From Bilabrum cf. latius (lineage: Eukaryota), in NCBI GenBank assembly GCA_965178125.1, contig OZ237748.1, positions 558,001-622,000 on the forward strand: a stretch of DNA of 64,000 nt, in the 5' to 3' direction. The position numbers were made by a program, and so were the translations under genes. Shown here piece by piece: positions 3,724-63,958 of this stretch (the first letter of the stretch is position 1; every line of letters starts with the position of its first letter). The notes under the pieces are model-generated. The model made no database searches, was not told the origin of the DNA, and saw only the letters and a list, made by a program, of their open reading frames with translations.

Positions 3724-6372
3724 TCACCGCCACCGCGGACGAAAGTCTATATATATGTCACTGTCTCTCCGTCTGCGTCTGCGTCTGCCTCTGCCTCTGC
3801 CTCTGCCTCGGCTTCGGTCTCCTTTGATCGTACCCTGAAGTGCTGCAGCCTTTCCCTCGCCATGCCCCGTTCCCTCTGGATGAGAATCCCCCCATGGCCC
3901 CGCCTCCTGTAATATCCTCACGCATTCTTCATGGCCTCCTAGTCGAGCAGCTTCCAATGGTCCAACGATGCGAGTGCTGCCGTCCTTGAGCTCAACACTA
4001 CCCTTGATCTCGAGCCCACCAGCTAGTTTGCCTAGCCTTAGTCGCTTCTCCAGCTCCATTGGCCTTCCCTCACTTGCCGCCCGGAACACTATCGATGCAT
4101 CCCGCTTGGCTTCCACTGCCCTCCTCCACTTAACCAGGGGGCGTCGGGCTCGCATGTGCTCGAATGACCGGATGGCCGCGGCGGTCTCTGTTTTATTTTC
4201 AGAAAAAGCTCTCTATACTGGGGTTTGGCCCTTCTGCAGATCGAAATGTAGACTGATTTATGATTGGGCTTGGGTTGCAAGTAGGGTGCTGCCGATGCTC
4301 TGTTAGCGGTTGTAACCGCTTTGCCAAGACAATCCAAGTCTTGGCAGAGCCGGGAGGCATGGTGACTTGGCAGCCCATACCAGGGCTGCCCGACCACTAG
4401 CACATGACCTGGAGATAGAGCCAGGTCGGTCACTAGACCACCACGCGTGTCGACAAAGGTGGCAATACGCCACCGCCCTGAGAGCCAAGCATCGTAGCGA
4501 GGACTGTAGACCAAGACGAAACAATATCGCAGTAATAGATCCTCTGTGCTAGTATCTATTGAAAGTGTTTTTCTTGCTTACATTGTTCTGGATGTCCCGA
4601 GTGGCACCAGCCTCCATAAGAATCATGGCGCAGGTGGTGCGGCCCCAATACGCTGCTCGATGGAGCGGGGTGTCTCCATTCTGCGGCAAACACGGGGTAA
4701 TGATAGAGGATCGTTTTAAACAAAATGGCATGGGTCAACGATGTGATGGCTAGCCCAGTGGCCTCAGACACAATCTACGCATCCATATCAGCTTCAGTTG
4801 CCGAGATAAGCCGAGTGACTCGAATCAAAGTACCTGCCGAGCGGCTGGAACGCTGAGCAGTCTCACTCTATCCCTACGATTTACATCTACCCCATATTCC
4901 ACCAAGACTCGCAGGCAAGCCTCTTTGCCATATTCCGCAGCCTAGTGGACGGACGTGGATCCAGTCTGACTTGAGGGAGAGGCGAGGATAAGGGTAAGAG
5001 AGGTGCTTAGGACATGGTAGTGGGGCATCCGGGATACGGGAGCAAGGAAAAATGCGGGTCACAAAGCAACCCTGCTGAAACGTGGGCTCGCGATTTCTTA
5101 TACACGGCAATCTATATAAACTATTTATCGGTGTTGATTATCGCTCAGAGTGATCCTAGGCAATGTCAGACACTCTTCGCGACAGTCGACTAACCGGAAC
5201 AAGGAGCAGGCCCTCGTAAATCCTGCTATGCTGGCTCTTTGCGCACGATGTACACACATATCATTCGCACCCACGAAACGAGCCACGATACGACCATCTG
5301 CCGGCGTCCGAGACGTGAAGCACACCTCACTCCGATGCATCGCTCTTCCATGCGCATGCACTTGATACTAGCAAGCGGCACCCGCATCCACATTTTTACA
5401 TGATATTTCTCACATTATTTTCCCAATCCGCATCACCACCAGCTCTCATCAACACTCTCAGACAGGCTTGTTGGCCTGTCTTGACAGCGAAATGGATGGG
5501 TGTGGATTCCGACTACGTTATATGGAGTGAAGGGTCTTAATGAGGTTGTGAAGGTGGGGCATGGCAGAGATTACATCCATACACGATTTATCTCGACTGA
5601 ACAATAGCCTAGTGGCTAGAAACTAGGCGCTTCGCTTCGTGGGTCAACAGCCCGCGAATCGAATCCAGGCAAAATGACGGGCACTACCGGTGGCGCAGAA
5701 TGCACACAAGTGCTGACGATCATACTACTACCACTATTGAATCTGCCATGTAGCTTCCAGCCAACAGCGAGCTACCGTCCCCAATTCCGAGAAGCCGAAT
5801 TTCCCCGAAGGCCATGTGCCATTCCCTCACATTGTTTACCGCGTTCATGTCTGCACCTTTCTGCATCAGCAGTGCAAGACAGTTCTCCTTACCATGTAAT
5901 GCAGCTTCATGTGCAGCCGTATCTCCACTCTGTGGCACACGGAGCCAGAAATACAAATCAAGTACCTCAACGGAGGCATGATCCGGATGGAAGCACGGCG
6001 CCAGCGCAAGTTTTACTCATGGACTTGAAGGCGTGCTTGATTGCATGCACCACAACGCCCACCAAATACCGAAACTGAAACATCGATAAGCTGTTTATAC
6101 CATTACATGTTTCTCACCCAATCCTTTGAGTTGACGTTGGTCCCCGTATCCATGTAGTCTCTAAGTTTATCAGTCTGACCGTCTCTTGCTGAGGCAATTA
6201 GTGCCTATCCCCTGCGAAATATATTTGGTATGTACGCAAGTTGCATTGACCAAGGATTAGCTGTTGTAATGCATTTTGGAACGCTTGCATAGTTCTGAAC
6301 TTTTCCTGTCTCTCCGATGTTGCAACATTCAAGCAAACTGTTGATTTTCGAATGAAAACTATGACCTTACAT
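3724..6372 (-). CDS. Ankyrin-repeat array gene 1 (divergent member); exons 6371-6372, 6118-6211, 5831-5929, 5414-5512, 4867-4965, 4582-4680, 3724-4233
   Basis: Four 99-nt GT-AG-bounded exons each encode one ANK repeat (e.g. SGDTAAHEAALHGKENCLALLMQKGADMNAVNN, NGDTPLHRAAYWGRTTCAMILMEAGATRDIQNN). The terminal exon carries the WRRAVEAKRDA domain and ends at TGA. Intact only if 3 in-frame TAG are read as sense. Confidence 0.85.
4303..4541 (+). mobile_element. Solo, partial B repeat of the Ngaro-like element in the last intron of gene 1
   Basis: High similarity to 2738-2974; ends at the same terminus (...atagatc). Confidence 0.85.
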
Positions 6373-6968
6373 GACTTAATTTTTTATTGAAGTGCAGTTT
6401 TGCTTATTCAAGGTGGCCTACGAGGGCCTCTTCTGATAGGCATCCCATTGCATCTTCGATAAAGGTTGCAACCGATAAATCAAGAAGAAGAAGATTTAAA
6501 CAGATAAATCACAGAAGCATCAGATCCGTTGGACGACGATCTACGAGCCAGCAGGATGAGGAAGGTGCTGAAGCTGGTGAGTGGAAACGGCCGAGGGCAA
6601 CATAGCGAAGGCGGTCATTACACCTACCATGTGTCATCACTCCCCGAACCTCCTCACCGCCTCCACAAGCTCCCCGCAGTCCTTGGCCATGCAAGCCGCA
6701 AAACCATCCGACAGTTCTTCCGAGAACCGTCTTCGGCGATGTTCGAGTCCATTGGTTCACCAATTGGGCTTTGAATTAGGCCTGGTCGATGGGCCGTTCC
6801 GACTGCCGGTGGCCATCGCGCAGCCGGATATACAGCGGGCTGTCTGCCGAGCTGCCCCGCGCTCACCCACCGGACAGCGATTTCTGCGGCCCGGCCGCCG
6901 TCTCGAACAGCGAGGCAGGCACCCAGCTCCTGTCCCTGGGCCCATCCCACGGGAGGCACCAAGACAGG

Positions 6969-7286: not shown

Positions 7287-10200
7287 TCATCCCTAGGCCT
7301 CCTGCAGCAGCTTCACGCAATCGTCGTGCCCACCCAGCCTGGCTGCCTCCAGTGGAAGCACCAGCCTAGAAGTCCCATCATCAATCATCGTTTTACCCCT
7401 GATATCTAACCCGCCGGCCAGCTTGCCCAGCCTCAGCCTCCTGGCCAGCTCTAAAGGCCGCCCCTCACTCGCCGCCTGGAACACCATCGATGCGTCCCTC
7501 TTGGCCTCCACTGCCCGCCTCCAGCACAGGCATTTTCGAATTGTAGAGGGGATGAACAGCCGGATGGCGGCAGCAGTATCAGTCTTGCGCCAATGGTGTG
7601 CGTGTTCGGCGGGTGTCTTGCCACTCTGCTCGATCAAAGGAAGCGATGGAGAGACGAGGGGTCACGGTGTCGGGGATGCACGGGGGGTGGATTCGTGCTT
7701 GGGAGTCTCCTTCAATTCATCTGGCAGCATGATGGACATTTGCAAATCAAGAGCTGATGCAGCTGTGGAAGCTCACGATATTCTTGATGTCCCTGCGGGC
7801 CCCTGCCTCCATTAGAATGGTGGCGAAGGCGGTCTTGCCATTATACGCAGCCAAGTGAAGGGGGGTGTTTCCATTCTGCGGTTGAATCGGAGGGTTCTGA
7901 AAGGTCATGAGCCAACATGGATTTCTCGGGCAATTGCCTGGCCAATCAATCGATTTTTCAGAGCTTGACTCCATGCAGCACATATTCCACCGATGTGCTC
8001 GGCATTGTGCGGCAGCTGTCCGGAAGCGAGCCGACGACCGAGAGGTAGCGCCAGGTGCACTGCGAAACCACCACTAACGGCAATTTAAGCAAACCAAGTG
8101 CTTCCGTACAACATCTAAAAACACATATATTGCTTTGAATCCATTGCGGCTCCAGACCAGGCAGTGCCGATTAAGATGGGCTACTTCCACAGAGTTCAGG
8201 TGCTGTGCTGGAACGACTGCAGGATACTTTTCAATCAGCATCAGATCTGATCAGCATCCGATTGCGCTATCAGCAAGCTCAACGCATACCAAGTATTTCG
8301 ATACAGGATCCACATCCAAACAAACCAAACAGATTGATTTGCCTTGAAAAGCAGCCCAAAATACCGATCTTGGGTGATCCGATGCCAGTGAAGCTTCGCC
8401 AGAACGAATCGGACAGGGCGGTTCAGACACACAGTGCAAGGCCCGTCAAGCATCAAACGCAACATCAACCTGACCTAGTCAAGTTCGGTTTATCGGAAAT
8501 ACCGTACAACAAATCCAAATCATGCAGCAGACATCGCTTCATAGCCCAACACACTCTCATGGACGCCCACTGGTCTCGCGAGGAATTTAAGCAGGAAGAT
8601 CTTCTCGGCTGAATATGTTCCCCGGCTTACCGGGCACGGTCAGCTGTTCGTTCGCGAACGTTCAGCTGATACTCCCTTAGGCAAGCACTGACTGGCAGTG
8701 AATCGATACAAGGCCGTTGCTTTGCGCGGTTAGCGGTTGTAACCGTTTCGCCAAGACAATCCAAGTCTTGGCAGAGCCGTGAGGCATGCTGACTCGGCAG
8801 CCTATAACAACGCTGCCCGACCACTAGCAAATGACCTGGAGATAGAGCCAGGTCGGTCACTAGACACACGCGCGTCAACATAGGTGGCAATACGCCACCG
8901 CCCTGAGAGCCAAGCATCGTAGCGAGGACTGTAGACCAAAACGAAACAATCTCGCAGTGATAGATTCCCGGCCTCCAACAATATGCCTAGAGGACGAACT
9001 ACACTATGATGACAACAATCAGCCCCGCTAGCTGAGCCAACCGCTCTCAGCTTGAGAATCGAATGGACCATCCACCACCAGCCAAGGCTTAGCCAGGCGA
9101 GCGCAGTTGCTTCCTTCCAGAACCGGCCAATCCAGCATTGCACGACTTGACAATACAAATCATCTACAATATCATACAAAACCCCTATTTTGGTCGTTTC
9201 AGGGCGACCAATAGCTCCCAAACGGCGATACGCTGGGACCATTCGGATCCGGAGTCGAATTCGATCGCAGAAAATCACGCCCATGGAACCAAACCATGAG
9301 AGCACAGCATGCCTATAGCGTGAGATACACTCACACGCGTCCAGCCCCAATTCGCCAACGTAGCAAAAACACCGCGAAGGGACCTGCCAGCGGGTCTCGG
9401 ACCCGGGAGGGGGCAATCCCAAGCGGAACAGACACACCCACTTATCCAACATTCAAACACAGACACCCAAGACCAACCTCTCCCTCAGCATATTTCTCTC
9501 TCTCACCTTATCCACCGCATTCACGTCCCCCCCATTTTCAGTCAACATCCGCAGACAATCCTTCCTCCCATTCGCGGATGCCACATGAGCGGGTGTTTCG
9601 CCATACTGCGGTGGGGGGATGGGAGACAGGGGGTTTGGGGGGAGCAGGGAGTGTGCTTGGGGTGGGTGTGGCTGTGGATGTGTGTGGACATGGGGCTGGT
9701 GTTGGTGCTGGGGAGTTTCAGGGGGTAAATCACTTCGTAACGTGCCTCCGTACCTACGGCACACAACTGACGGGGACGGACCGGAGGGAGTCGCTCTGGG
9801 CCCTAGGGGCGCAGTACCCGGGTCGATTCCCGCTCGAGAGACAAGATTACCAAAACCGAAATCCATCCAAACATACAACAATCATCCTACCAAGCAATTT
9901 CACCGCGACATGAACCGGTCCCGGTCTCAAAATTCTCATGTCGACCGAGATAGCCGAGGGGGCCTCTGGGGGGACGGTCGGCGGCCGACTCGCCGGCTTT
10001 GCAGGTCATTGATCACAATCCAAGCACGCTACATGCATTGGTGCTATACCAGATACATATACATTGCATTGAAACCATTGCTGCTCAAGACTAGCCAGGG
10101 CCGATTGAGACGGGCTGCTGCCACAGAGTTCAGGAGCAATGCTGGTATGCATGCAGGATACTATACACACAGCATCCAGTTGCGCTGCACATCAGGGAAA

Positions 10201-12831
10201 ACACCACACGAACACGTGACCTTATGCTTCTATATCACGCCCAAGCTGATACTCATATCACATTGTTACATGTCAGCGACCCATTGCATGCCAAGCGAGC
10301 TCTGCCATCCTGTATCAAAACACTCTGTATGCGTGTAGCACGCACCAGCCACGGCTTGGCCAGGCGAGCGCATTTACTCCCTTCCAGGATCTATCACTGC
10401 GAGACTGTTTCGTCTTGGTCTATTGTCCTCGCTACAAAGCTTGGCTATCAGGCCGGGGCATAGCTGTAGAACACATGTGCTACCGAAATTCCGAACAAGT
10501 GAGAGACTCACATCAGTCTACACAATCTCTCCGATCTAAATCACTTCGTAACGTGCCTCCGTACCTACGGCACACAACTGACGGAACTAGTCAATCCGTT
10601 AATGCACGAACTGGCAAGACAAACTATGCACAGTATCATACGAACAAGCCCTATTTTGGTCGTTTCAGAGCAACCAATCCCTCCCAAACGGCGATCCGAT
10701 GCAACCAATCGGATCCGAAGTTGAATCCAATCACAGGATTGCGCTCCCAAGATCACGCTCATGGGTCCAAACCATGATACCATACCATACCTACAGCCCC
10801 AGATACGCGCACAAGTGTCCAGCCCCAAACCATCAACACAAGAGGAGAACCGCGAAGGGACCTGCCAGCGGGTCTCGGACCCGGGAGCGGGCAATCCAAA
10901 GCCGGACAGGGAAACACACCCATCCAACACACAAGCACACAAACACAAGACCAACCTCTCCCTCAACATATTTCTCTCTCTCTCACCTTATTCACCGCAT
11001 TCACGTCCCCCCCATTTTCAATCAGCATCCGCAGACAGTCTTTGTGCCCATTCCTGGATGCCCAATAAACAGGTGTGTGGCCTTTCTGCGGTGGGGGGAT
11101 GGGAGACAGGGGGTGGGGGGGAGCAGGGTGTGTGCTTGGGGGGGGGGGGGGGGTGAATGTGTGTGGGCATGGGGCGTGTGATGGGGGTATTGGGGGGGCT
11201 TTGGGACGGGCCGGTGGGAGTCGCTCTGGGCCCTAGGGGCGCAGTCCCCAGGTGGATTTCCTCTCAAGGGACAAAATCACCTTAAGCAAAAGACATCCAA
11301 ACATACACCAATATTCTTATCAGCCCATTCCATCTCGACAGGGACCGGTCCCGGCCTCTAAATCCGACTGTCGACTGAGATAGCCGAGGGGGCCTCTGGG
11401 GGGACGGTCGGCGGCCGCCTCGCCGGCTGTGCAGGTCCTGAAAGACAAATTACTCAAATTAAGCACATCAATGAATGACATACTGTGTATGTATCGATCA
11501 GTGCAAACTCATTGAGCTCTGCTCATCGGACGCGCAAGCCAGGCAATGAGGATCGAGCTGATACCCGTCACACAGGCCAGTCATGTTCTCCCCCGGGGAG
11601 CTGTCAACGATCAAGACCCAACCTTGAACAAAAGAAGTCAACAAAGTCGACCAAGCAATATACATTCGCCTCGGAAACTTAAACATATCCCAGTGAATCC
11701 ACATCCCGGAAGCCGCCACTCACCTGCCCCACCCAACACGAGAGCTAGGTGGGCCAGACGGGCAGGGCTGAACGATGGCCAGGGTGCCTCGCACAAATAC
11801 TAGAAGATATGCATGGTCAAATATTACGACATACAATCGACCGCATCCAGATGACATCAATAACAAATTGCGCCTCCTATTGAGACCGAGCCAGTCACCG
11901 GGGAGCACCTGCTCGGGGGCCCGGCTCAACCGACCAGGAGCCATTCAGATGCTATGCTCGCCACTCCAAGGGAAACAAACAGTATACAGGACACCACAAG
12001 CAAATCGAATATCCCGAATACTACCTACAATCCACCTTGTTGGGGCAGGCAGCCTCTCTCTCTCTCACGTTGCTGGCAGCATTCACGTTAGCGCCCCTCT
12101 CGATGAGCAGCTTCAGGCAGTCCGCCTTACCGTAGCATGCTGCATAGTATGCAGCTGTCTGGCCATACTACGATGCACTAAAGAAAGATTTAACCGTTGA
12201 TAGGTAGCCGTAGATGGCAGACAGACCCCGAGGGAAGAAAGCAACCTGGTGGCGGAGGGTGAGGATCCGCTGATGGCCAGGCGCGGAGAGCAAGCAATAC
12301 AAGAGGTGCATGTCACTGCCATGTACAGGTAGCAGCAGTACTACATAATCAAATCAGCTTCCCCGACTCGCCCCCTAAATTTAGCTCATCAAAGAATCGA
12401 TGGCATGCATCAGGTCTCCAATGGTGGATCGCTGTCATCCCATCACTGGTGAGCTTTGTGACAGCCTGTACGCGGACCTTCTGGTGTAAACAAGAATACT
12501 AGCTCAAAAAGAAATCCAAAAGCCCAGTCAGTCGTACTCAATCTCACTCTATCTTTGGATTCGGTGTCCGTTCCCAAATCCAGGCAGGCCCTCAGGTCGT
12601 CCACCGTGCCATTTCCGGCTGCTGTAAGAAGTGCGTCTCCCCTGTGAAGTCTTAAGATCAATGTTAATATTGTATGTATCGCGACAAGCTGACTCGTGTA
12701 AATCGAATCCACGAGGATAACTCAACGCACCACAAGAGAAAACTAGGATAGTCTACAACAGCTGCTACGGAAAACTTTCAGCCTGAACAAATTATACAGG
12801 TACTCAGATAAAGACACACAAGATCTTACAT
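7287..12831 (-). CDS. Ankyrin-repeat array gene 2; exons 12830-12831, 12548-12641, 12069-12167, 10987-11085, 9507-9605, 7777-7875, 7287-7625
   Basis: N-cap MGDALLTAAGNGTVDDLRACLDLGTDTESKDR, then four 99-nt ANK exons (types A,B,B,C) with canonical splice sites. The terminal exon ends LLQEA-TAG-GGA-TGA. Confidence 0.9.
8626..8966 (+). mobile_element. Intronic insertion: hairpin head (ggtcagctgttcgttcgcgaacgttcagctg) fused to a full B repeat
   Basis: B homology over 8681-8966. Absent from the paralogous intron of gene 3 (~14620-14640). The sequence ttcccggc occurs at both junctions. Confidence 0.8.
9726..9773 (-). mobile_element. 48-bp terminal fragment of the Ngaro-like A repeat
   Basis: taaatcacttcgtaacgtgcctccgtacctacggcacacaactgacgg is identical to 39436-39483 and absent from paralogous introns. 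Confidence 0.85.
10388..10584 (-). mobile_element. ~200-bp miniature Ngaro-like derivative retaining both element termini
   Basis: Begins with the B terminus gatctatcactgcgag and ends with the A terminus cacacaactgacgg, with internal deletions. Confidence 0.8.
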
Positions 12832-12892
12832 CTCGAACTAATATCACAAAGAGACAAGCGTCTTCCAATAGGCGGCTGCCGACCAGGTGTGA

Positions 12893-16300: not shown

Positions 16301-17665
16301 TAATCACTTCGATGTCATACTATGTATGTACTGATTAGTACAAACTCCTTGAACTCCGCCCATCGGAGGCGCAAGTCAGGCAATGAGGATCGAGCTGAAT
16401 GCTCGTCACACAGGACAATCCTGTCCTCCCCAGGGGAGCTGCCATCGAACGACAACCAACCTTGAACAAAGGAAATACACCAAGTCAACCAATCAATTGG
16501 CATTCGCCCTCTAAACCCAGACACAACTCGGGTGAATCCGCATCCTGCAAGCCAACACTCACCTGCCCCAACCAGCACGGGAGCCAGGTGGGCCAGCCGG
16601 GCGGGGCTGAGGCATGGCCAAACGGCCTTGCGCCAATACAAGAAGACCTACCTGGTCAAACTATACCAACATAGAATCGACCGCATCCACAAGAAAGCAA
16701 AAACAAATCGCGCCTCCCCTTGAGACCTTGTCAGTCACCACCGGGGAGCACATGCTCGGGGGCCCGGCTCGATCGACGAGGAGCAAACTAGAGGCCATGC
16801 TAGCCACTTGAACGGGTAAGAACAGTATAATAAACTCCCAAGCCAACTAAAATATCCCAAGTATCGCCTACAACCCGTCCTGTTGGCCAGGTAGCCTCTC
16901 TCTCTCACGTCTCTGGCAGCGTTCACGTTGGCGCCCCTCTCGATGAGCAGCTTCAGGCAGTCCGTCCTGCCATTGCATGCAGCCTAGTATGCAGCTGTAC
17001 AACCATCCTGCGATGCACCAAGACAGATAAAACCGTTAGTGGGTAGCCGTGGATGGCAAGCAGATCCCGAGGGAAGGGAGCAACCTGGTGGCGGGGGGTG
17101 AGGATCCGCTGATGGCCAGGCGCGGAGAGCAAGCAGAACTAGAGGTGCATGTCACTGCCATGTACGCACACCATTGCACCTGAATCAAATTAGCTCCCCC
17201 GACTCGCCCCGTAATTTAGCTCGCCGATGAATCGATGGCGTGCAACAGGTCTCCAATGGTGGATTGCCATCATACCATCATTGGTGAGCTCCGAAACAGC
17301 CTGTTCGTGGACCTTCCCGTCTTGACATTAATATCAACTCAAAAAGGAATCCAACAGCTCGACCAGAAGAGCTCAATCTCACTCTATCTTTTGATTCGAT
17401 GTCCGTTCCCGAATCCAGGCAAGCCCTCAGGTCGTCAACCATGCCATTTACGGCTGCTGCTCGAAGTGCGTCTCCCCTGTGAAGCTTGAAAATTGTCGTA
17501 AGTAATTTATGTATCGCGTGAAGCAGACTCATGTGGATCAAATCCACGAGGACATCACAGCGCACCTCAGGTAGCCAGGATACACACTGTAACAACAGCT
17601 GCTACGGAGCGGTATCATACTCTACGAGTTGTACAAACCAAATATGAATACACACTATCTTACAT
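13306..17665 (-). CDS. Ankyrin-repeat array gene 3; exons 17664-17665, 17383-17476, 16909-17007, 15190-15288, 13801-13899, 13306-13644
   Basis: Exon types A,B,C, all 99 nt with intact splice sites. In-frame TAG at 16984 and twice in exon 13801-13899; one reads RDI-TAG-NK where gene 1 has RDI-CAG-NN. Confidence 0.85.
15601..16240 (-). mobile_element. Intronic insertion headed by the hairpin motif; its ~300 bp head matches 21303-21617
   Basis: Interrupts the conserved intron sequence ctctggggg|gggacgg. 15915-16222 is the reverse complement of 21311-21617. Confidence 0.75.
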
Positions 17666-19415: not shown

Positions 19416-19450
<35 letters not shown>

Positions 19451-38155: not shown

Positions 38156-38174
38156 GTGGGCCGGGCCTCCCCCC

Positions 38175-44173: not shown

Positions 44174-44251
44174 CTTAAACTGATATCGAAATGAGACCAG
44201 TGCCTTCCAAGTAGGTTTGAAGATGGCCAGTAGATCTAGGCCACTCGGTAG

Positions 44252-50321: not shown

Positions 50322-50909
50322 TTCAAACTATTACCACAACCAGACCGGTGCCTCCTAAGCAGGTTGTAAATGGCCAATGGGCTGGGCCAGCGGTAGATCT
50401 AGCGCTAGCGTTAGCGGAACCTAATTAGGCGCCACGCGCGGCCGGCGAGGTGCCCGGATCACATCTGGGCCTCTGTCGCAGTCGATGTAGATTAAATTGT
50501 CTTTCAACTGTGTCACTGATTTTAAATACTACATTTGTATCGACAAGCGCCATGCATCGATTGATGCAGGATGGTCGACTTCGGTCAGGTGCCGCCGACC
50601 GCGCGTGAACATGCCCGTCTTCAAGTTGCTGGGCCCGCACTACGATTGTGTGAAATTATTTTCAAGCTTAAATCACGTAGTGGCAGCAAGTCTCTAGCTA
50701 GCCCGTCCAAAGCAGGTATTGCGCACTGGCCCTCTCTAGCTAGCCCGTCTAAACGTGCTCGCGGCCGTCTGCAGGCCGTCCCAGCGGCTGCAGCCGCATG
50801 TCCAAGGATAAATCATCTTGTTCAATTGCATATACATTGCATGAACTGCATGGGGTACCCCCTACCGGGCGAAGAAGTGCGGAGGTTTGCCCCGCTCGGG
50901 TCCCGCCCA

Positions 50910-54324: not shown

Positions 54325-54345
54325 CTGCAATGCACTAAAGAAAAA

Positions 54346-56888: not shown

Positions 56889-59650
56889 TCACTAATCTAT
56901 ACCTCCTCTCTAGGCTTCATGCAGCAGCTTCACGCAATCGTCGTGCCCACCCAGCCTCGCTGCCTCCAGTGGAGGCATCAGTCTAGAAGTGCCATCATCA
57001 ATCGTCACATTCCCCTTGATCTGCAACCCGCCGGCCAGCTTGCCCAGCCTCAGCCTCCTAGCCAGCTCCATGGGCCTCCCCTCACTCGCCGCCTGGAACA
57101 CCATCCCAGCGTCCCTCTTGGCCTCCACTGCCCTCCTCCAGCACATGGCTCTTCGCACCGGTGATGAAACAAATGACCGGATAGCAGCAGCGGTGGCAGT
57201 CCGGCACCGTGAGTCTGCCAACTCGGCAGGACTTTTGCCACTCTGCTCAATCCGGGAATCATTGGGCAGCATAATGGAGATGTAGGAATCAAGAGATGCT
57301 CTGATGCAGTTGTAGAAGCTCACCTTGTTCTTGATGTCCTTGCGGGCCCCTGCCTCCATGAGGATCATGGCGCAAGCGGTGTAGCCATTGTACGCTGCCA
57401 AGTGGAGAGGAGTGCTTCCATTCTGCGGATGGATTGGGGGTATTGGGGGTATTGACACGTCATGAACCAACATAATTCTCATTAACATATACTCGAACGA
57501 TCCGTCTTTGAGAACTTGAATCCATGCAGCATCGCTACCATCAATATGCGGCAGCGGTCCGGCACCAGCGAGCCGACGACCGAGAGGTAGCACCAGGTGC
57601 ACTGCCAAACCATTTTCAACGGCAGATCAAGCAAACCAAATGCATCTGTTTCATACGAAACAGACACACGTTACTATGAATCCATTGCGGATCCATATTT
57701 CCAGCCCAAGATACGCGCACAAGTGTCCAGCCCCAATCAATCAACGCAGCGGGAGCACCGCGAAGAGACCTGTCAGCGGGTCTCGGACCCCGGAGCGCTC
57801 AATCCCAAGCCCGACCGACACGCACACCCATCCAACACACAAGCACAAAATACACACAAAACCAACCTCTCCTTCATCATTTTAATCTCTCTCACCTTAT
57901 CCACCGCATTCACGTCCCCCCCATTTTCAGTCAACATCCGCAGACAATCATTCCACCCATTCAAGGATGATATATGAAAGGGTGTGCGGCCAAACTGCGG
58001 GGGGGGGGGAGACAGGGGGTGAGGGGTGAGGCGGGAGCGGGTGTCTGGTTGGGGTGGGTGTGGGTGTGTCACCCTGCCCGACGCTCACCTGCCCCACCCA
58101 GCACGAGAGCCAGATAGGCCAGCCGGGCGGGGCTGAGCGATGCCAAAACTACTTCGGACCGCGAATAACTCGTCTAACGATACTAAAGCACAATTCGACC
58201 CATCCCCAAGACAACAAGAACAAATCGGGCCTCCTCTTGAGACCTCGTCAGTTACCGGGGAGCACTTGCTCGGGGGCCCGGCTCGATCAACGATGATCCA
58301 TTCAGATGCCATGCCAGTCATTTCAAGGGATAAAACAGCATAATGAACTCTGAAGCCAGCTCCAATATCCCAAGTACAGCCTACAACCCGCCCTGTGGGG
58401 CGGACAGCCTCTCTCACGTTGCTGGCAGCGTTCACGTTGGCGCCCTTCTCAATGAGCAGCTTCAGGCAATCCGCCTTGCCATAATGTGCAGCCAGCAATA
58501 CAGCTGTCCAACCATACTGCGATGCGCAAAAGCAAGATGAAACCGTTGGTATGTAGCCGTTGATGGGTGGCAGACGCCGAGGGAAACGAGCAACCTGGTA
58601 GCGGGGAAATGCAACCCGTGCTGGGAACCCATGCAGGAAGGACTCCATGGACGATGCCTTTAGGCTGTTCTGCCAATATTTCCAAGTCCCTAGTCCATTC
58701 AGTCTCTCCAATGTCCGAGCAGCTGTCTCGCCTTTCTAGCGAGTAGCACCCGGGTGATGATCCGCTGATGGCCAGGCGCGGAGAGCCAGCAGAACAAGAG
58801 GTGTCTTCCACTGCCATGTACAGATAGCAGCAGTATAACATGTGAAATTAGCTTTCCCGTATCGTCCCCTAATCTAGTTCGCTGATCAATCGATGGCGTG
58901 CATCCTGTCTCCGTTGGTGAGGCCAGCAAGGTCTCTGAGATTGAGGTCACTCGGTGGGCGCAGGACCCGCTCGAGGAGCAGGCTCAGATGCGACGTAGCG
59001 ATGCGGAGGAGTGAGAGGGAGCGAGAGAGAGAGAGCAGCTAGGGGGGGGGGGGTGCAGGGGTGGGGTGGGGGGAGGGGGGCGAATGGAGGGGTTTGGGGA
59101 GGGTAGAGCAAAGGGAGGGGGGGACGACGGTTCACCGGAACGGGGGAGGAAATGGTGGAGGAGAAGATGATCGGTGGGGTCATTGGGTTGATGAGGCGGA
59201 TAGGAAGGGGGAGGCACAGGCCGGGCAGGTGTGGGTTGGGCATGTGTGACGAGTGACTCGGATCAGGGGGATCGGATCACCGACCACATGCGTATTGCTA
59301 TCATCCGATCCCTGGTGAGCTCCGTGACAGCCTTCACGTGGACCTTCGGGTCTTAACATCCAAAAAACAGGTCAGGCGTTCTCTGTCTCACTCTATCTTT
59401 GGAGTCGATGTCCGTTCCCGAATCCAGGCAAGCCCTCATGTCGTCTACCTTGCCATTTTTGGCTGCTGTTCGAAGTGCGTCTCCCCTGCAAATCTCAAAG
59501 ATAATGCATGAAATATTTTAGTAGCGTTAAACAGGCTCATGTTGATCAAATTGACCGGGAAATACAAGGCGCCACAGACAGCCAAGATGCAACAGCTGCT
59601 ATACATCGGTAGCTAAATAATGGCACCCACTGAACCTGTTCAACTTACAT
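56889..59650 (-). CDS. Ankyrin-repeat array gene 9; exons 59649-59650, 59392-59485, 58418-58516, 57896-57994, 57324-57422, 56889-57242
   Basis: Exon types A,B,C, all 99 nt. The last intron is shortened to 81 nt. With TAG read as sense, the gene ends at TGA 56889. Confidence 0.87.
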
Positions 59651-60194
59651 TCCAAAATTATATCACAACAACCAGCACGGTGAATTCCAAGCAGGTTGGA
59701 AGATGGCCAATGTGCCACCGGGCCGCACCGCGGTGCCACCGCCTCCTGGTGCACTTCTAATGTCACCTTTCAATTCAATATTACAGAGTTTTGCAAAGGT
59801 GCAGGCTCGTGCTGCTGAGTTTGCGGGTGGTGCCACGGAGGAGCAGGTAGCCGATATCGGAGCTAATGGACTTCAGTTGGGACAGGATGCTAACGATGCA
59901 CCCAGAAATATAGACAATGCGGCGGATCCGGGAGTAGCGCAAGGGCAACTCGCTCAAGCCGACCCGGGTGCCGGTGCCGAAAGTTGAAGAACTTTCGATA
60001 AGTTTTGTTATGTGTGATTATCTCAATACGTTATTTACGGACGGTGCAGGCAAAATAATAATTTGGTGCATCAAAATGATTCAGTTTTACACAGACAGGT
60101 GCAGGTTTTGGTGTGTGTAATCCCATTATCTCAACACGTAATTTACGGAAGCTTCCGTCAGGTTCCGTCGGGATCCTCCTCATGAACCTAGACC

Positions 60195-63100
60195 TCATCC
60201 CTAGGCCTCCTCCAGCAGCTTCACGCAATCGTCGTGCCCACCCAGCCTGGCTGCCTCCAGTGGAAGTACCAGCCTAGAAGTCACATCTTCAATCATCGCA
60301 TTTCCCTTCATCTCCAACCCACCAGCCAGCTTACCAAGCCTCAGCCTCCTAGCCAGCTCCAAAGGCCTCCCCTCACTCGCCGCCTGGAACACCATCCCAG
60401 CGTCCCTCTTGGCCTCCACTGCCCACCTCCAGCACATGGCTCTCCGGACTCGTGATCGAATAAACGTCCGAATGGCGGCAGCAGTATCAGTCTTGCCCCA
60501 ACGGTGTGCATGTTCGGCGGGTGTCTTGCCACTCTGCTCGATCCAGTAAGCGAGAGAGAGGGGCACAGGATAGGGCGCGTGGTGGGGGTGGGTTGTGGGA
60601 GGGGTAATTGGTCGATCGCTGCTAGGACTCCTTGGGTTCATCGGGCAGCATGGTGGACAGATGGGAATTAAGTGTTGTTGTAAGACAGCTAGCCAAACTC
60701 ACATGGTCCTTAATGTCCCTGCGGGCCCCTGCTTCCATAAGGATGGTGGCGCAGGCGGTGAGGCCATTGCGTGCTGCTCCATGGAGCGGAACGTATCCAT
60801 GCTGCGGATGAGTCATACGGTACGGGCCGGCTATGATGCAACTTGGTTATCTGAAACAATGAGTACATCATCGGTCTTTGAGAGCTTGAATCCATGCCGC
60901 ATCTCAGCCACCGATATGCTCGGATACACGCAATAGAGGCCTGCTTGCACATGATCTTCACTAAACATATCATACAAAACTAAAGGAGCCTTCTCAAAGC
61001 GACCGGAAAATCACAATCCCGGGTCAGATGCGAGCAATTGGATCCTGGATCGACTCCTATCCCAGATTTTCGCACCCGAAATCACACCATTCACTTCCAA
61101 GCCGTCAACACAGCGGTAGCACCGCTAAGGGACCTCCCAGCGGGCCCCAAAGCCGAACAAACACACAAACACACAAACACACTCATACAATCCACCCCTT
61201 ACGATTCCGCTCTCACCTACTCATCAACCGCATTCACGTTTCCACCATTTTCAATAAGTATCTGCAGACAGTACTTACGCCCATTTCCAGATGCCGCATG
61301 AACGGGTGTATCGCCATTCTGCGACGGGAGAACGGGGAGACAGGGGGTGGGGGGTGCAGGGAGTGTGCTTGGGGTGAGCGTGCATGCGAGTATGAGTGTG
61401 TGCGTGGGACTGATGCTGGGGGTGCGGTGGCCGTGGTAAACACAGGGGGGCAGTGACTAGGAACCCTGGGGGCGTATTACTCGGATAGATTCCCGCTCAA
61501 GGCGCAAAATCGCCCATACTATAACCCATACAAACAAATGTTCATCGATATATCGCAGTATTTCATCCCAACAGGGACCAGCCTTGTCCTCTCAATCCGC
61601 CTGGGGGCTGAGATAGCTGAGGGGCCCTCACTACCTGAGATATACACACACGTGTTCAACTCCAACCTGCCAACGTAGCAGCACCGGGAAAGAGCCTCCC
61701 AGCGGGTCTCGAATCGAGGAGTGGCCAATCCAAATACAAACAAACATCGGAACATAAACAACGCACAAGCACGCATACAGACAAGATCAACTTATCCCTT
61801 CATATAGTGCTCTCACCTTATTCGCCGCATTCACATCTCCCCCATTTTCAATCAGCATCCGCAAACAGTCGTTACACCCATTCGCGGATGCCGTATGAAC
61901 GGGTGTCGAGCCATCCTATGGGGGTGTAGGGTGGGCTTCGATGCGCATGCATTTGCGTGTGTGCCTTGGGTGGGTGAGGGGGGCCTTGGGGAGGGCATTT
62001 CTTGCACCCAAATATGTTTCAATTTCCCCCACTAAGGCACTGAGCAGCCAAGAGGTCCTCTGGAACAACGGGCGCCAGCCGCCTCGCTAGCTGTCGTGCA
62101 TAGGAACAGTTGCAGCACCAGTTCCAAAATGTATTCCTCTCACCTCATTCATCGTATTCACGTTTCCACCATTTGTAATAAGCAACCGCAGACAGTCATC
62201 ACGCCCTTTCTCAGATGCCGCATGAACAGGTGTCCAGCCATCCTGCGGTTTTGGGCTGAAATTCAGGGGGTGGGAGATTGCTTGGGACTGGTCTGCTGGG
62301 GGGGCGGGCGTGGGTGCGCACCGGTCCACACGCATTTGTAGTATACCATTCGCGCATAAACTGATATGTATCATTTGGAAGCTACCACTACCTGTTCCAG
62401 ATCAGGCAATGCCGAAAGAGACGAGCTGGTTGACTGAGTTCAAGCAACGAGCTGGACAAAATGCTGGAAACACTTCATACAGCATCCAGTTGAGGTATGC
62501 ATTACATAAAAGATAAACAGACACGCACACTCATCCACCACGCAAACCACCATCTCACATAAATCTACCCCTAAATGTATTTCGCTCACCTCATCCATCG
62601 TATTCACGTTTCCCCCGTTCTCAATAAGCACCCGCAGGCAGTCCTTGCGCCCACATGACGATGCCGCATGAGCAGCTGTGTAGCCGTCCTGCGGAAAGGC
62701 GATGGAAAACAGGCGGTGTTGGGAGCAAGAAAGGCGTGTGCCTGGAGTGGGTTTGAATGCGTCTGTGTGTGTGTGCATGGCGTGGTTGGTTGGGGTGCGG
62801 GGGTCCCGGGCAGGGTCAGCTGTTCGTTCGCGAACGTAAAGCTGGCGCGCACCGGTTGGAGTTGCTCTGATCTTTAGGGTCACAGTCCCCAGATGGATTC
62901 CCGCTCGAGTGACAATCGCCAAATCTGTAATCTAAACAAATACACACAATTGTGGCATTTCATACCAGCAAGGGCAGATCTCACCCTCTGCATCCGTTTA
63001 GGTGCCGAGATAGCCGAGGGGCGCTCTGGAGGCAAGAAATGCAGACGTCTAGCCGCCTGGGCCTACCAACCTCATTAACAACAAACCAGCCAGATAGACC

Positions 63101-63958
63101 GCATCAATGCCATAATGACAATGATATGTCCAGAAAGAATCTCGTTAAGCTCGACCTATCGGTGCCACCGGCCAGACAGTGCAGACCAAGCTGCACGCTC
63201 GTCACACAGGCCCGTGCTGTCATCGATCAAGAATTAAGCTTGTACATAGCTAGTACACCAATTTGACTAATCTAAATACATTTGCCTCAAAAATTTAGAC
63301 ACGATCCTAGTGCATCCACATCTCGCTAGCCAACACACATCTGCCTCACCCAGCTCGGGAGCCAGGTAGATCTAGGCAAGCCGCGGGGTTGAGCGATGGC
63401 AAAACTGCCTCGCGGCAATGTATGTGGTCGTGCAAGTTCAAATCGTACCAACAACAAAATCCAACTCATCCACACGATAGCAAGAACAATCGAATCTCCT
63501 CTAAGACCTCATCAGTCACCGGGGAGCACTTGCTCGGTGGCACGGCTCGATCGACGAGGAGCTAACTAGAGGCCACGTAGGCCACTTTAACCGATACAAA
63601 CAGCATTATGAACCCCCACTCCAAAGTATATACTACGAATATCACCTGCAAGCCGCCAAGGAGCATGTTGATAACGCACTCGTCACGATGCTAGACCTAT
63701 CCCCTGCTGATGGGCCGCCACTAATCGAGCTGAATCGGAGAACCAAACACATACCAGCAACAATTTTACAGAGGCGAAATTGATCAATACTGCATCCGCA
63801 CAACAACGGCGCATCAGCCAGGAAATCCAATCCGCCGTGTTGGGCAGGCACCCTCTCACCCAGTCGGCAGCATTCACGTTGGCACCCCGCTCGATGAGCA
63901 GCTTTAGACAGTCCATTTTGCCGTTGCATGCAGCCAACCATGCAGCTGTCCGACCACT
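60195..63958 (-). CDS. Ankyrin-repeat array gene 10 (5' end outside window); exons 63860-63958, 62590-62688, 62144-62242, 61817-61915, 61217-61318, 60703-60801, 60195-60533
   Basis: Exon types A,B,B,B,B,C. One exon is 102 nt and ends in TAG directly before the GT donor. The terminal exon ends TAG-GGA-TGA. Confidence 0.85.

What the first reader, a model, noticed from the sequence alone, without database searches (positions are those of the whole stretch)
3724..63958. Natural DARPin-like repertoire: ten tandem genes built from one-repeat-per-exon ankyrin cassettes
Seen: every complete gene has an N-cap exon (94 nt), ordered 99-nt phase-0 cassettes of three classes (A: TAAY.AA..GKTDCLKLLIERGANVNAA; B: TPVH.AS..G..DCLRMLIENGGDVNAVD; C: TPLH.AA..G.TACATILMEAGARRDIKN) and a constant terminal exon. 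Cassette formulae differ: ABBC, ABC, AABC, ABC, ABBC, ABC, ABC, ABBBBC. Duplicated exons carry their flanking intron, implying unequal crossing-over. Phase 0 means any skipping or shuffling stays in frame. Inference: a diversifying recognition system with a variable binder and a constant domain, possibly immune or prey/host sensing.
Basis: partly seen in the sequence, partly recalled or inferred. Interest (0 to 1): 0.85.

Follow-up and report, generated by a model that had tools for sequence, protein, structure and literature searches.

The report
Tandem ankyrin genes with sense TAG
A head-to-tail row of ten small ankyrin-repeat genes built from one repeat per exon is real, and most copies look functional once the codon TAG is read as an amino acid, which this organism appears to do.

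Summary
Ten minus-strand ankyrin (ANK) gene units lie between 3724 and 63958. There are 35 cassette exons: 33 of 99 nt, one of 96 and one of 102, all phase 0, in three clear classes. Contigs from two public runs join exons exactly at two predicted borders.

- Twelve in-frame TAG codons sit inside otherwise intact exons, with no TGA, TAA or frameshift. A reverse-transcriptase ORF in the window carries 19 TAGs. An environmental relative carries a TFIIH Tfb4 gene with 6 TAGs. TAG is therefore almost certainly a sense codon here, probably Gln, with TGA as terminator. The copies are not pseudogenes.
- The "constant domain" is itself ANK-like: a long helix plus two terminal repeats. Pfam does not recognise it. 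It is shared by about 100 protein clusters, most with no recognisable N-terminal domain.

Best reading: an old, germline, birth-and-death family of small intracellular ANK binders with a shared C-terminal docking module. I found no evidence for somatic, combinatorial or immune-type diversification. Duplications are 13–30% diverged, and dN/dS at binding-surface positions is about 1, not above.

The parts
3724..6211 (-). G1, divergent paralogue: N-cap 6118-6211, cassettes 5831-5929 (A-like), 5414-5512 and 4867-4965 (B-like), 4582-4680 (C), terminal exon 3724-4233 with an RG-rich tail and TGA stop. In-frame TAG at 6205-6207, 4942-4944 and 4213-4215.
   Evidence: X2 and X5 contigs cover 4621-5983 and 3825-4233 with 0 differences (table 8).
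7287..12885 (-). G2 (ABBC, 276 codons). Non-coding exon 1 ends at 12830 (..AT|GTAAGA). N-cap 12548-12641, A 12069-12167, B 10987-11085, B 9507-9605, C 7777-7875, terminal exon 7287-7625 (..LLQEA TAG GGA TGA).
   Evidence: Contigs in X5 and X7 join 11085|12069, skipping 983 nt with GT..AG on the minus strand.
13306..17720 (-). G3 (ABC, 243 codons). Exon 1 ends at 17664. N-cap 17383-17476, A 16909-17007, B 15190-15288, C 13801-13899, terminal exon 13306-13644. In-frame TAG at 16984-16986, 13897-13899 and 13807-13809.
   Evidence: Contigs in X5 and X7 join 13644|13801, skipping 156 nt with GT..AG on the minus strand.
24591..29603 (-). G4 (AABC). Exon 1 ends at 29549. The N-cap exon starts at 29368 and is interrupted by an insert of about 0.7 kb; its 3' end resumes near 28590. 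A 27898-27996 (TAG at 27955-27957), A 26812-26910, weak B 25729-25827, C 25086-25184, terminal exon 24591-24929. Probably damaged.
39839..40418 (-). G5, a 5' fragment only. Exon 1 ends at 40364, N-cap 40118-40211, A 39839-39937. It is part of a 1.5-kb segmental duplicate of G7's 5' end (39484-40947 against 49409-50907, 94.5%) and abuts a retroelement.
41497..44226 (-). G6 (ABC, 243 codons). Exon 1 ends at 44172. N-cap 43934-44027, A 43450-43548 (TAG at 43540-43542), B 42471-42569, C 41992-42090, terminal exon 41497-41835 (TAG at 41827-41829).
47440..50374 (-). G7 (ABBC, 276 codons). Exon 1 ends at 50320. N-cap 50046-50139, A 49767-49865, B 48856-48951 (96 nt), B 48406-48504 (GC donor, TAG at 48472-48474), C 47949-48047, terminal exon 47440-47781 (TAA stop).
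51633..54324 (-). G8 (ABC). A 54226-54324, B 53138-53236, C 52128-52226, terminal exon 51633-51971 (TAG at 51867-51869, at the W/F position of the module). No exon 1 or N-cap was found; a 481-bp x 2.9 tandem repeat lies upstream.
56889..59703 (-). G9 (ABC, 248 codons). Exon 1 ends at 59649. N-cap 59392-59485, A 58418-58516, B 57896-57994, C 57324-57422, terminal exon 56889-57242.
60195..63958 (-). G10 (ABBBBC; its 5' end lies beyond the window). A 63860-63958, B 62590-62688, B 62144-62242, B 61817-61915, B 61217-61318 (102 nt, last codon TAG), C 60703-60801, terminal exon 60195-60533.
7287..7526 (-). Conserved C-terminal 'T module' of G2, taken as the example: residues about 34-110 of the terminal exon, WRRAVEAKRDA...GRPLELARRLRLGKLAGGL...PLEAARLGGHDDCVKLL. 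Predicted as a long helix plus two ANK-like repeats.
   Evidence: No Pfam hit. 109 related clusters. Model pLDDT 89.8. ANK proteins are the best matches in the profile-to-PDB search and in Foldseek.
33411..39386 (.). Retroelement next to G5. Reverse-transcriptase ORF 33411-35936 (+) with 19 in-frame TAG. Tyrosine-recombinase ORF 37070-38302 (-) with 4 TAG. It is not part of the gene family, but it is the in-window evidence for how TAG is read.

Best explanation
This is a head-to-tail tandem family of small intracellular ankyrin-repeat proteins of about 243-343 residues, in a eukaryote that reads UAG as an amino acid.

Gene structure. Each gene has a short non-coding exon 1 that ends in AT. A 94-nt N-cap exon supplies the G of the start codon. 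Then come 3-6 cassette exons, each one ANK repeat in phase 0, ordered A, B(n), C. A 336-nt terminal exon follows. It encodes a degenerate repeat, a long helix and two ANK-like repeats (the conserved 'T module'), and ends ...QEA-TAG-GGN-TGA.

Shown here:
- the exon structure and the three cassette classes;
- purifying selection on framework positions and on the T module;
- free variation at the canonical target-binding positions;
- exact exon-exon junctions in public contigs;
- TAG as a sense codon, which makes G1, G2, G3, G6, G7, G9 and, as far as visible, G10 intact.
G4, G5 and G8 are damaged at the 5' end.

Inferred:
- Cassette number changed by old unequal crossing-over of exon-plus-intron units.
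- The proteins act as germline-encoded binders whose ANK groove differs from copy to copy.
- The T module, shared with about 100 other protein clusters (most without a recognisable N-terminal domain), docks them to a common partner or assembly. The logic resembles ANK + SOCS-box or ANK + F-box-like adaptors, but none of those motifs is present.
For: Structure:
- 35 cassettes: 35/35 AG acceptors, 34 GT + 1 GC donors, 33 x 99 nt plus one of 96 and one of 102 nt. The spliced frames are open to a terminal TGA or TAA in every unit.
- 7/7 cassette exons tested pass Pfam Ank; the matches start at profile position 1-3 and end at 30-33 of 33.
- Within-class identity is 74-79%, between-class 46-53%.
- The start codon is split AT|G. 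A conserved block of about 55 nt ends ..AT|GTAAG in 7 units. By my reading of the sequences printed, an in-frame TGA or TAA lies five codons upstream in 6 of the 7.

Selection:
- dN/dS is 0.19-0.39 at 27 framework positions and 0.25 in the T module.
- dN/dS is 1.04, 0.98 and 0.58 (classes A, B, C) at the six positions that DARPin libraries randomise (the position list is recalled).
- Flanking introns are 74.5% identical with 0.17-0.19 gap events per substitution. The exons are 77% identical yet keep their length.

Expression: contigs in X5 and X7 skip exactly 12068-11086 (G2 A-B intron) and 13800-13645 (G3 C-T intron), with GT..AG on the minus strand. X2 covers the region but lacks these joints.

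TAG is a sense codon:
- 12 internal TAG, 0 TGA and 0 TAA in the ANK exons. The expected TAG share among nonsense substitutions is 0.53, so P is about 0.002 for the 10 of 10 counted.
- The RT ORF has 842 codons with 19 TAG, and its RVT_1 match (57.6 bits, cutoff 29.6) spans 5 of them. The recombinase ORF has 4 TAG and a Phage_integrase match of 35.1 bits.
- In relative L001, the Tfb4 ORF (357 codons as scanned, 2956-4029) has 6 TAG and scores 87.8 bits (cutoff 27). L001 also has a 927-codon ORF with 7 TAG. Its ANK+T gene has 3 TAG, one inside an intact repeat, and ends in TGA.
- TAG aligns with Gln at the RT 'QG.P.SP' motif and in a Tfb4 relative.
- An X5 contig from another study covers G1's terminal-exon TAG with 0 differences.

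T module:
- 109 clusters at E<=1e-3 among 1.84 billion representatives.
- 30 of 35 members scanned have no Pfam family; 5 have ANK hits, 2 of them clear.
- By eye, two have LRR-like N-termini.
- The model has pLDDT 89.8. The best matches in PDB sequence and fold searches are ANK proteins: FEM1, ASB9, DARPins.
Against: - No listed run is on record as RNA. The run kinds of X5-X7 are guesses, and X5 is flagged 'probably DNA'. The two exact junctions could therefore come from processed DNA copies.
- Only two introns of two genes are bridged at exact borders. Other joints link different genes and are ambiguous.
- dN/dS at binding positions does not exceed 1. 'Different targets per copy' is an inference from lack of constraint, not from demonstrated selection, and dS of 0.5-0.9 is near saturation.
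- The function of the T module is unknown. It has no catalytic or known adaptor motif and could simply be a family-specific C-cap.
- The amino acid encoded by TAG rests on 2 Gln matches among 7 aligned positions (Q, D, L, R, V; Q, R). In the ANK columns that hold a TAG, paralogues mostly have K, W or E; Q is 4 of 106.
- Several TAGs near exon 5' ends (G3 C codon 1, G6 A codon 3, G6 T codon 3) could act as alternative in-frame AG acceptors rather than codons.
- ORF length alone is not decisive in the window. Reading TGA as sense also gives long ORFs (34 of at least 300 aa).
- The absence of TGA and TAA in the RT, recombinase and L001 ORFs is partly by construction, because those ORFs were delimited by those stops.
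- Three of the ten units are damaged (G4, G5, G8).
Confidence: 0.62

Rival explanations
1. One reading: a dedicated diversifying recognition system, immune-like or for prey or host sensing. Phase-0 cassettes would be skipped, shuffled or spliced between neighbouring genes to make a combinatorial binder repertoire on a constant effector domain.
For: - All cassette introns are phase 0, so any skipping stays in frame.
- Genes lie only about 0.4-0.5 kb apart head to tail.
- Laid contigs include joints between exons of different genes. One example is 7877->15192, which is in linear order: G3 B to G2 C.
- Variability sits at the binding-surface positions.
- The T module recurs on other N-termini, most without a recognisable domain.
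Against: - The cross-gene joints miss the exon borders by 2 nt, or fall inside the terminal exon (7528), or run in an order impossible for cis-splicing (15287->10987). 'Goes back' B-B joints also occur. All of these fit transcripts of unsampled paralogues mapped at >=90% identity.
- Apart from the G5/G7 segmental copy (94.5%), duplicates are old. Unit trees are star-like with only 3 strongly supported forks, and G3+G8 is recovered in both the A and B trees.
- dN/dS is not above 1.
- I saw no obvious signal-peptide-like or transmembrane-like stretch by eye; no predictor was run.
- The constant part is ANK-like, not an effector domain.
Confidence: 0.1
2. Ordinary structural or scaffold ANK family. 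The copies are redundant, the variable positions are simply unconstrained, and the terminal module is only a lineage-specific C-terminal cap with no docking role.
For: - dN/dS is about 1 at surface positions, which is what neutrality predicts.
- The T module is ANK-like by features, profile and fold.
- Three units are already decaying at the 5' end.
Against: - The T module is much more conserved than the cassettes (dN/dS 0.25; 7 invariant and 17 nearly invariant columns across 46 sequences).
- It also occurs at the C-terminal end of proteins with no detectable ANK stack to cap (30 of 35 scanned). This argues for a function of its own.
Confidence: 0.22
3. Decaying pseudogene array read under the standard code. 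On this view the in-frame TAGs are real premature stops, and only G2 and G9 are functional.
For: Seven of the nine units with a terminal exon carry at least one internal TAG. The array lies among satellite and retroelement sequence.
Against: - All 12 internal stops are TAG, none TGA or TAA (expected TAG share 0.53).
- There is no net frameshift in 35 cassettes or 9 terminal exons. Adjacent introns show 0.17-0.19 gap events per substitution.
- Framework dN/dS is 0.19-0.39.
- Unrelated ORFs with Pfam-supported domains carry 19, 4 and 6 TAGs and no other stop: RT and recombinase in the window, Tfb4 in L001.
Confidence: 0.04

Closest known systems
Designed ankyrin repeat proteins (DARPins) and consensus ANK proteins
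   Same: N-cap, a variable number of near-consensus 33-residue internal repeats, and C-terminal capping repeats. Variability is concentrated at the positions that DARPin libraries randomise (the position list is recalled). DARPins are among the best PDB matches of the terminal module.
   Different: These are natural genes with three ordered repeat classes (A, B, C) rather than one consensus. The C-terminal part is a conserved helix plus two-repeat module that also occurs on proteins without detectable ANK repeats. Binding has not been demonstrated.
ANK + SOCS-box (ASB) and ANK + F-box-like/PRANC adaptor proteins
   Same: Logic only: a variable ANK stack followed by a short conserved C-terminal module that is shared across proteins. 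ASB9, ASB11 and FEM1 ANK domains are among the top sequence and fold matches.
   Different: No SOCS-box, F-box or PRANC match: 0 Pfam families for 3 terminal exons. The matches to ASB and FEM1 lie in their ANK domains, not their boxes. No link to ubiquitin ligases has been shown.
Vertebrate ankyrin genes (ANK1-3) with many 99-bp single-repeat exons, and general expansion of repeat proteins by tandem exon duplication
   Same: One 33-residue repeat per exon and growth by duplication of exon units. The ANK1-3 exon structure is recalled, not checked here. Bjorklund et al. 2006 (PMC1553488, passages read) discuss tandem duplication and exon shuffling in repeat expansion and treat ankyrin among the families.
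   Different: Here the unit is a whole small gene repeated ten times, with a varying cassette count. Bjorklund et al. report that ANK repeats mostly duplicate several at a time, whereas here single B or A units were added.
Nuclear codes with UAG reassigned: UAG=Gln with UAA kept as stop in Iotanema spirale, and UAR=Gln in ulvophycean green algae, ciliates and diplomonads
   Same: In-frame TAG in conserved genes. TGA is the terminator (also TAA in G7, the RT and the recombinase ORFs). TAG aligns with Gln at two conserved sites. Sources: Panek et al. 2017 (PMC5304391, abstract read) and Cocquyt et al. 2010 (PMC2984419, passages read).
   Different: The organism is unknown: GC about 55%, introns of 0.2-1.5 kb, rich in repeats. 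Whether TAA is also a sense codon is unresolved. The ANK exons hold 0 TAA against 12 TAG, with a CAA:CAG ratio of 5:23. No tRNA or eRF1 evidence is available.
Lamprey VLR-type somatic cassette assembly
   Same: Repeat cassettes (LRR there, ANK here) clustered in the genome with variable cassette number.
   Different: Here every cassette lies inside a complete gene with its own splice sites. There is no incomplete germline gene flanked by donor cassettes and no evidence of somatic rearrangement.

Membership tests
Ankyrin repeat (Pfam PF00023, Ank clan) | 33-residue repeat scoring above the Pfam gathering threshold | tested here: met
   7 of 7 cassette exons score 22.1-38.1 bits (cutoff 21.1). 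The matches start at profile position 1-3 and end at 30-33 of 33. The N-cap exon gave no hit.
Ankyrin repeat (Pfam PF00023, Ank clan) | The terminal 'constant' exon also belongs to the ANK fold | tested here: inconclusive
   Pfam gives 0 families for 3 terminal exons. Language-model features are ANK-like, 0.97. A family profile hits ANK chains in PDB down to E=6e-16, but that alignment also contains two members with true ANK repeats. All top Foldseek hits are ANK proteins, but E>=0.048 and only 63-72 residues align at low rmsd.
DARPin-like architecture | N-cap + internal consensus repeats + C-cap, with variation at the randomised surface positions | tested here: met
   Gene models. Entropy peaks at exon positions 1, 3, 8, 11, 12, 14, 15 and 31-33. 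dN/dS at the six a-priori positions is 0.58-1.04, against 0.19-0.39 elsewhere. The list of DARPin positions is recalled. This is a resemblance in design, not descent.
ASB / SOCS-box substrate receptors | C-terminal SOCS box (BC box + Cul box) | tested here: not met
   No Pfam SOCS_box hit in the terminal exons at E<=1. By eye, the BC-box consensus (recalled) does not fit PLEAARLGGH.
F-box / PRANC ANK proteins | F-box-like or PRANC domain after the ANK stack | tested here: not met
   No Pfam hit in the terminal exons or in 30 of 35 T-module proteins.
VLR-like somatic cassette assembly | Incomplete germline gene flanked by cassettes that lack their own splice sites | tested here: not met
   All 35 cassettes have AG acceptors and GT/GC donors inside complete genes.
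Nuclear code with UAG as a sense codon | In-frame TAG inside conserved protein domains, with no other in-frame stops | tested here: met
   RVT_1 match across 5 TAG in an 842-codon ORF with 19 TAG. Phage_integrase ORF with 4 TAG. Tfb4 with 6 TAG in relative L001. 12 TAG in the ANK exons.
Nuclear code with UAG as a sense codon | Identity of the encoded amino acid (Gln) | tested here: inconclusive
   TAG aligns with Q at 1 of 5 RT positions, the conserved QG motif, and at 1 of 2 Tfb4 positions. Q makes up 3.8% of paralogue residues in TAG columns, against a background of 0.8%.
Nuclear code with UAG as a sense codon | Suppressor tRNA(CUA) and altered eRF1 | not testable with these tools
   The window holds no tRNA gene and no whole genome is held.
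Nuclear code with UAG as a sense codon | UAA retained as a stop (UAG-only variant) | tested here: inconclusive
   The ANK exons, delimited by splice sites, hold 0 TAA against 12 TAG, with a CAA:CAG ratio of 5:23. In L001 the TAA/TGA-delimited ORFs run 927 and 357 codons, and reading TAA as sense adds little. G7, the RT ORF and the recombinase ORF end at TAA. Absence of TAA is partly by construction in the ORF-delimited regions.

The most novel reading that the evidence does not exclude
The array is the ANK branch of a larger, lineage-specific 'T-module' superfamily. In it, germline-diversified binders (ANK, LRR-like and others) are coupled through one conserved C-terminal module to a common intracellular pathway, giving an adaptor or innate-sensor repertoire. 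It sits in a eukaryotic lineage that independently reassigned UAG alone (UAA and UGA kept as stops). Only a handful of lineages are so far described with that code variant.
Probability: 0.15. Interest if true: 0.8.

Novelty: new variant of a known kind. Interest (0 to 1): 0.58.

Why it matters
1. Annotation. Under the standard code, seven of the nine units with a terminal exon would be called pseudogenes, as would every TAG-containing gene of this genome. Reading TAG as sense restores them. Any gene prediction for this assembly and its environmental relatives needs a non-standard table.
2. Genetic code. If UAA is indeed retained as a stop, this is a further case of the rare UAG-only reassignment. 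The genome is GC-rich, intron-rich and repeat-rich, unlike the described cases.
3. Repeat-protein evolution. The array is an unusually clean natural example. One repeat equals one phase-0 exon, matching the Pfam repeat boundaries, and cassette number changes by single exon-plus-intron units.
4. A new domain family. The conserved C-terminal module has no Pfam family and is shared by about 100 protein clusters. It is a tractable handle for finding what these binders are coupled to.

Tried and rejected
- Own-genome search: no genome is held.
- RNA evidence: no RNA holder was listed for window:7200-12800.
- Lineage clues: a recalled dinoflagellate spliced-leader motif gave 0 matches, Rfam 0 families, tRNA scan 0 genes.
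- Pfam on 42 spacer ORFs under the standard code: 0 of 42 with a family. The retroelement domains appeared only when TAG was read through.
- Unit trees (exon + 200 nt upstream + 150 nt downstream) for A, B and C. They are mostly unresolved: 3 of 23 inner branches are starred. They therefore neither show nor exclude mosaicism. G3+G8 is recovered in both A and B, and G4's first A groups with G9's A.
- An earlier dN/dS run used positions chosen partly by their variability. It is superseded by the a-priori set. The N-cap dN/dS included a mis-registered G1 row and is not used.
- The 72 'gap events' it reports inside exons are aligner artefacts between equal-length sequences.
A 12-sequence alignment was used instead and found 2 near-identical loci.
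- Full-length relative P0023 (ANK + T): the model is poor (pLDDT 62.8, ANK part below 60). The packing of the T module on the ANK stack is not resolved.
- Self-association of the T module: the complex job gave no verdict.
The lineage of the organism remains unknown.
- Literature searches for single-repeat-per-exon ANK genes found nothing directly relevant. The ANK1-3 example is therefore recalled.
- Cross-gene joints were considered as inter-gene splicing and set aside as more probably paralogue mapping.
- Depth was not used as a copy number.

Full report
**What the window is.** The window is eukaryotic nuclear DNA. GC is 50-63% in 2-kb bins, and it has GT..AG introns, microsatellites and a satellite. 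No whole genome is held for it. All ankyrin (ANK) coding sequence lies on the minus strand.

**Checking the observation.**
- A blind scan for AG|99 nt open|G[TC] gave 410 candidates on both strands. 26 of the 410 carried at least 2 of 4 ANK motifs, and all 26 were on the minus strand. One of them is an out-of-register overlap.
- An HMM built from 25 cassettes recovered the weaker cassettes.
- tblastn with G2's N-cap and terminal regions located seven N-cap copies and nine terminal exons.
- The final models give ten units. From high to low coordinate, which is 5' to 3', they are: G10 ABBBBC (5' end off the window), G9 ABC, G8 ABC, G7 ABBC, G6 ABC, G5 (N-cap + A only), G4 AABC, G3 ABC, G2 ABBC, and G1 (a divergent ABBC).
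- Of the 35 cassettes, 33 are 99 nt, one is 96 nt and one is 102 nt. 35/35 have AG acceptors; 34 have GT donors and 1 has a GC donor. All introns between cassettes are phase 0.
- The three classes are real: 74-79% nucleotide identity within a class and 46-53% between classes.
- Each cassette exon is almost exactly one Pfam Ank repeat. 7 of 7 tested pass the gathering score, with matches starting at profile position 1-3 and ending at 30-33 of 33.
- Duplicated units carry their introns. The two B units of G2 are 80% identical over 577 nt.

**New details of gene structure.**
- The 94-nt N-cap exon begins with the third base of a codon.
- About 190 nt upstream, a block of about 55 nt is conserved in seven units and ends ..AT|GTAAG.
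- The start codon is therefore split AT|G between a non-coding exon 1 and the N-cap exon. By my reading of the sequences printed, an in-frame TGA or TAA lies five codons upstream in 6 of the 7 units.
- The proteins begin MGDAL... (MVFA.M in G5 and G7). I saw no obvious signal-peptide-like hydrophobic stretch by eye; no predictor was run.
- Genes follow one another head to tail, in places only about 0.4-0.5 kb apart.
- G4's N-cap exon is interrupted by an insert of about 0.7 kb.
- G8 has no exon 1 or N-cap; a 481-bp x 2.9 tandem repeat sits there instead.
- G5 is a two-exon fragment inside a 1.5-kb segmental copy of G7's 5' end (94.5%), next to a retroelement.

**The in-frame TAGs.**
- Twelve codons inside otherwise intact exons are TAG: 3 each in G1 and G3, 2 in G6, and 1 each in G4, G7, G8 and G10.
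- None is TGA or TAA. From the codon make-up of these exons, the expected share of TAG among nonsense substitutions is 0.52-0.53, so 10 of 10 has P of about 0.002.
- No exon has lost its frame. The introns immediately beside them are 74.5% identical, with 0.17-0.19 gap events per substitution. The exons are hardly more similar (77%).
- Neutral decay therefore does not explain the pattern.

**The decisive evidence for TAG as a sense codon comes from unrelated genes.**
- When TAG is read through, the window yields an 842-codon ORF (33411-35936, +) with 19 TAG. Its RVT_1 match (57.6 bits, cutoff 29.6) spans residues 501-732 and five of those TAGs.
- It also yields a 411-codon ORF (37070-38302, -) with 4 TAG and a Phage_integrase match of 35.1 bits.
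- A metagenomic relative found through the terminal module is L001 (L002 is nearly the same). It carries a TFIIH Tfb4 ORF (357 codons as scanned, 2956-4029) with 6 TAG (Pfam 87.8 bits, cutoff 27), ending in TGA.
- L001 also has a 927-codon ORF with 7 TAG.
- Its ANK + terminal-module gene has 3 TAG. One of them lies in the middle of an intact repeat, and the gene ends in TGA.
- In L001 only the TAG-sense reading produces these long ORFs; the TAA-sense and TGA-sense controls do not.
- In the window, ORF length alone is not decisive, because TGA-sense also gives long ORFs. The domain matches carry the argument there.

**Which amino acid, and what terminates.**
- TAG aligns with Gln at the conserved RT motif (..LDQG.P.SP.. 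in P0112) and with Gln in a Tfb4 relative (P0113).
- The other five aligned positions are D, L, R, V and R. Gln is the best guess but not proven.
- Terminators seen are TGA (8 ANK genes, plus both terminated L001 genes) and TAA (G7, the RT ORF and the recombinase ORF).
- The ANK exons, which are delimited by splice sites and not by stops, hold 0 TAA against 12 TAG, with a CAA:CAG ratio of 5:23. This hints at a UAG-only change but does not show it.
- Some TAGs at the first to third codon of an exon could alternatively serve as in-frame AG acceptors.
- One TAG (G1 terminal exon) is covered with 0 differences by a contig of run X5, which belongs to another study.
- With TAG read as sense, every spliced frame is open to its terminal stop. 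In seven genes the protein ends ...QEA-(TAG)-G (in G9, -RGGID-(TAG)) before TGA.

**Expression.**
- No listed run is on record as RNA, and the run kinds are guesses.
- Contigs in X5 and X7 nevertheless join 11085|12069 (G2 A-B, skipping 983 nt) and 13644|13801 (G3 C-T, skipping 156 nt). These are exactly the predicted borders, with GT..AG on the minus strand. X2 covers the region without these joints.
- This is what spliced RNA would give; processed DNA copies cannot be excluded.
- Other joints connect exons of different genes. They miss borders by 2 nt, fall inside the terminal exon, or run in an order impossible for cis-splicing. 'Goes back' B-B joints also occur.
- I read these as transcripts of paralogues elsewhere in the genome, mapped piecewise at >=90% identity.

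**Selection.**
- dN/dS was computed from pairwise Nei-Gojobori counts pooled within each class.
- It is 0.39, 0.33 and 0.19 (classes A, B, C) at 27 framework positions.
- It is 1.04, 0.98 and 0.58 at the six positions that DARPin libraries randomise. That list is recalled and was fixed before the count.
- It is 0.25 in the conserved part of the terminal exon and 0.65 in its first 33 codons.
- The ANK framework and the terminal module are therefore under purifying selection in the family as a whole. The canonical binding surface is free to vary, and positive selection is not shown. dS of 0.5-0.9 is close to saturation.

**Age and mode of duplication.**
- Units are 70-89% identical. Only the G5/G7 copy is recent.
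- Trees of A, B and C units are largely unresolved (3 of 23 inner branches starred). G3+G8 pair in both the A and B trees. G4's first A groups with G9's A and not with G4's second A, which fits unequal exchange between genes.
- Nothing indicates ongoing shuffling.

**The terminal exon.**
- Pfam finds nothing in it.
- Searches of 5.8 billion and 1.84 billion proteins found a small family: 9 longer proteins and 109 clusters at E<=1e-3. The conserved stretch WRRA.EA.RDA..VF.AA.EGRPLELAKRLRLGKLAGGL...PLEAARLGGH.EC is usually near the C-terminus.
- Of 35 members scanned, 30 have no Pfam family and 5 have ANK hits, only 2 of them clear. By eye, two have LRR-like N-termini.
- Many of these database entries are single-exon ORF fragments, so their architectures are incomplete.
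- The module is nevertheless ANK-like. Language-model features are closest to ANK clusters (0.97). A family profile hits ANK chains in PDB, although the alignment includes two ANK-bearing members.
- The AlphaFold model (pLDDT 89.8) is a long helix, a helix, a beta-hairpin and a final helix pair. All its best Foldseek matches are ANK domains (FEM1B/C, ASB9, DARPins), with weak E-values (>=0.048) over 63-72 residues.
- No SOCS-box, F-box or PRANC signature is present.
- A full-length relative folded poorly, so how the module packs on the stack is open.

**Interpretation.**
- The array is a germline, birth-and-death family of small intracellular ANK proteins. Repeat number changed by old single-unit exon duplications, and the groove residues differ between copies.
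- The conserved C-terminal module recurs on proteins without detectable ANK repeats. That makes a shared docking or assembly function more likely than a mere cap, but this is inference.
- The 'diversifying immune-like system' is not supported by age, selection or protein features, though cDNA data could still reveal cassette skipping.
- The more consequential result is the genetic code. Without it, most of the array, the neighbouring retroelement and the relative's housekeeping genes would be misread as broken.

**Comparison with known systems.**
- UAG-only reassignment with UAA kept as stop is described for Iotanema spirale (Gln) and a rhizarian (Leu) in Panek et al. 2017 (PMC5304391, abstract read). 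Further UAG changes in phyllopharyngean ciliates appear in a search listing only (PMC11687900).
- UAR=Gln is known in ulvophycean green algae (PMC2984419, passages read).
- I cannot place the organism, so I cannot say whether its code is already on record.
- Repeat growth by tandem duplication and exon shuffling is general knowledge (PMC1553488, passages read).
- The single-repeat 99-bp exons of vertebrate ANK1-3 are recalled, and my searches did not retrieve a source.

Noticed in passing
window 1-2215: A 128-bp satellite, 17.3 copies, 81% matches, directly upstream of the array on the + strand. This suggests a repeat-rich chromosomal region such as a subtelomere or pericentromere.
   Followed up: partly
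window 33411-39386; also 2467-3635 and short copies near 4306-4548, 8630-8986, 10390-10470: A retroelement with reverse transcriptase (+ strand) and tyrosine recombinase (- strand), DIRS-like by its pair of enzymes. Its terminal stretch of about 1.2 kb recurs inverted at 2467-3635 (96% to 35630-36803). Pieces of about 250 bp sit in ANK introns and spacers; the same peptide string appears in ORFs there.
   Followed up: partly
window 54346-55745: A 481-bp unit repeated 2.9 times at 99% identity, at the place where G8's exon 1 and N-cap exon would be expected.
   Followed up: partly
window 21727-24350: A 1,314-bp tandem duplication at 99.9% identity in the 6.6-kb gap between G3 and G4. That gap has positive GC skew and no ANK exon.
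   Followed up: no
window 19619-20824 (+): A 402-codon ORF with 2 TAG and a weak RRP5 S1-domain match (22.4 bits, below the cutoff of 27). It may be an unrelated gene on the opposite strand inside the array.
   Followed up: no
L001 1-4029 (L002 is nearly identical): The environmental relative carries a TFIIH Tfb4 gene with 6 in-frame TAG. In that gene TAG outnumbers CAG + CAA by 6 to 2. It also has a 927-codon WD40-like ORF with 7 TAG. This is the same code peculiarity in a second organism, which shares the T module at 63% identity.
   Followed up: yes
window 7117-7290 and equivalents (41324-, 51463-, 56734-): About 180 nt downstream of the stop codon are conserved at 82-85% among G2, G6, G8 and G9. 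They are followed by (GCAGGT)n-type microsatellites. This is probably a shared 3' UTR.
   Followed up: no
window 32242-32471: An 18-bp microsatellite (12.8 copies, 95% matches) in the spacer between G4 and the retroelement.
   Followed up: no
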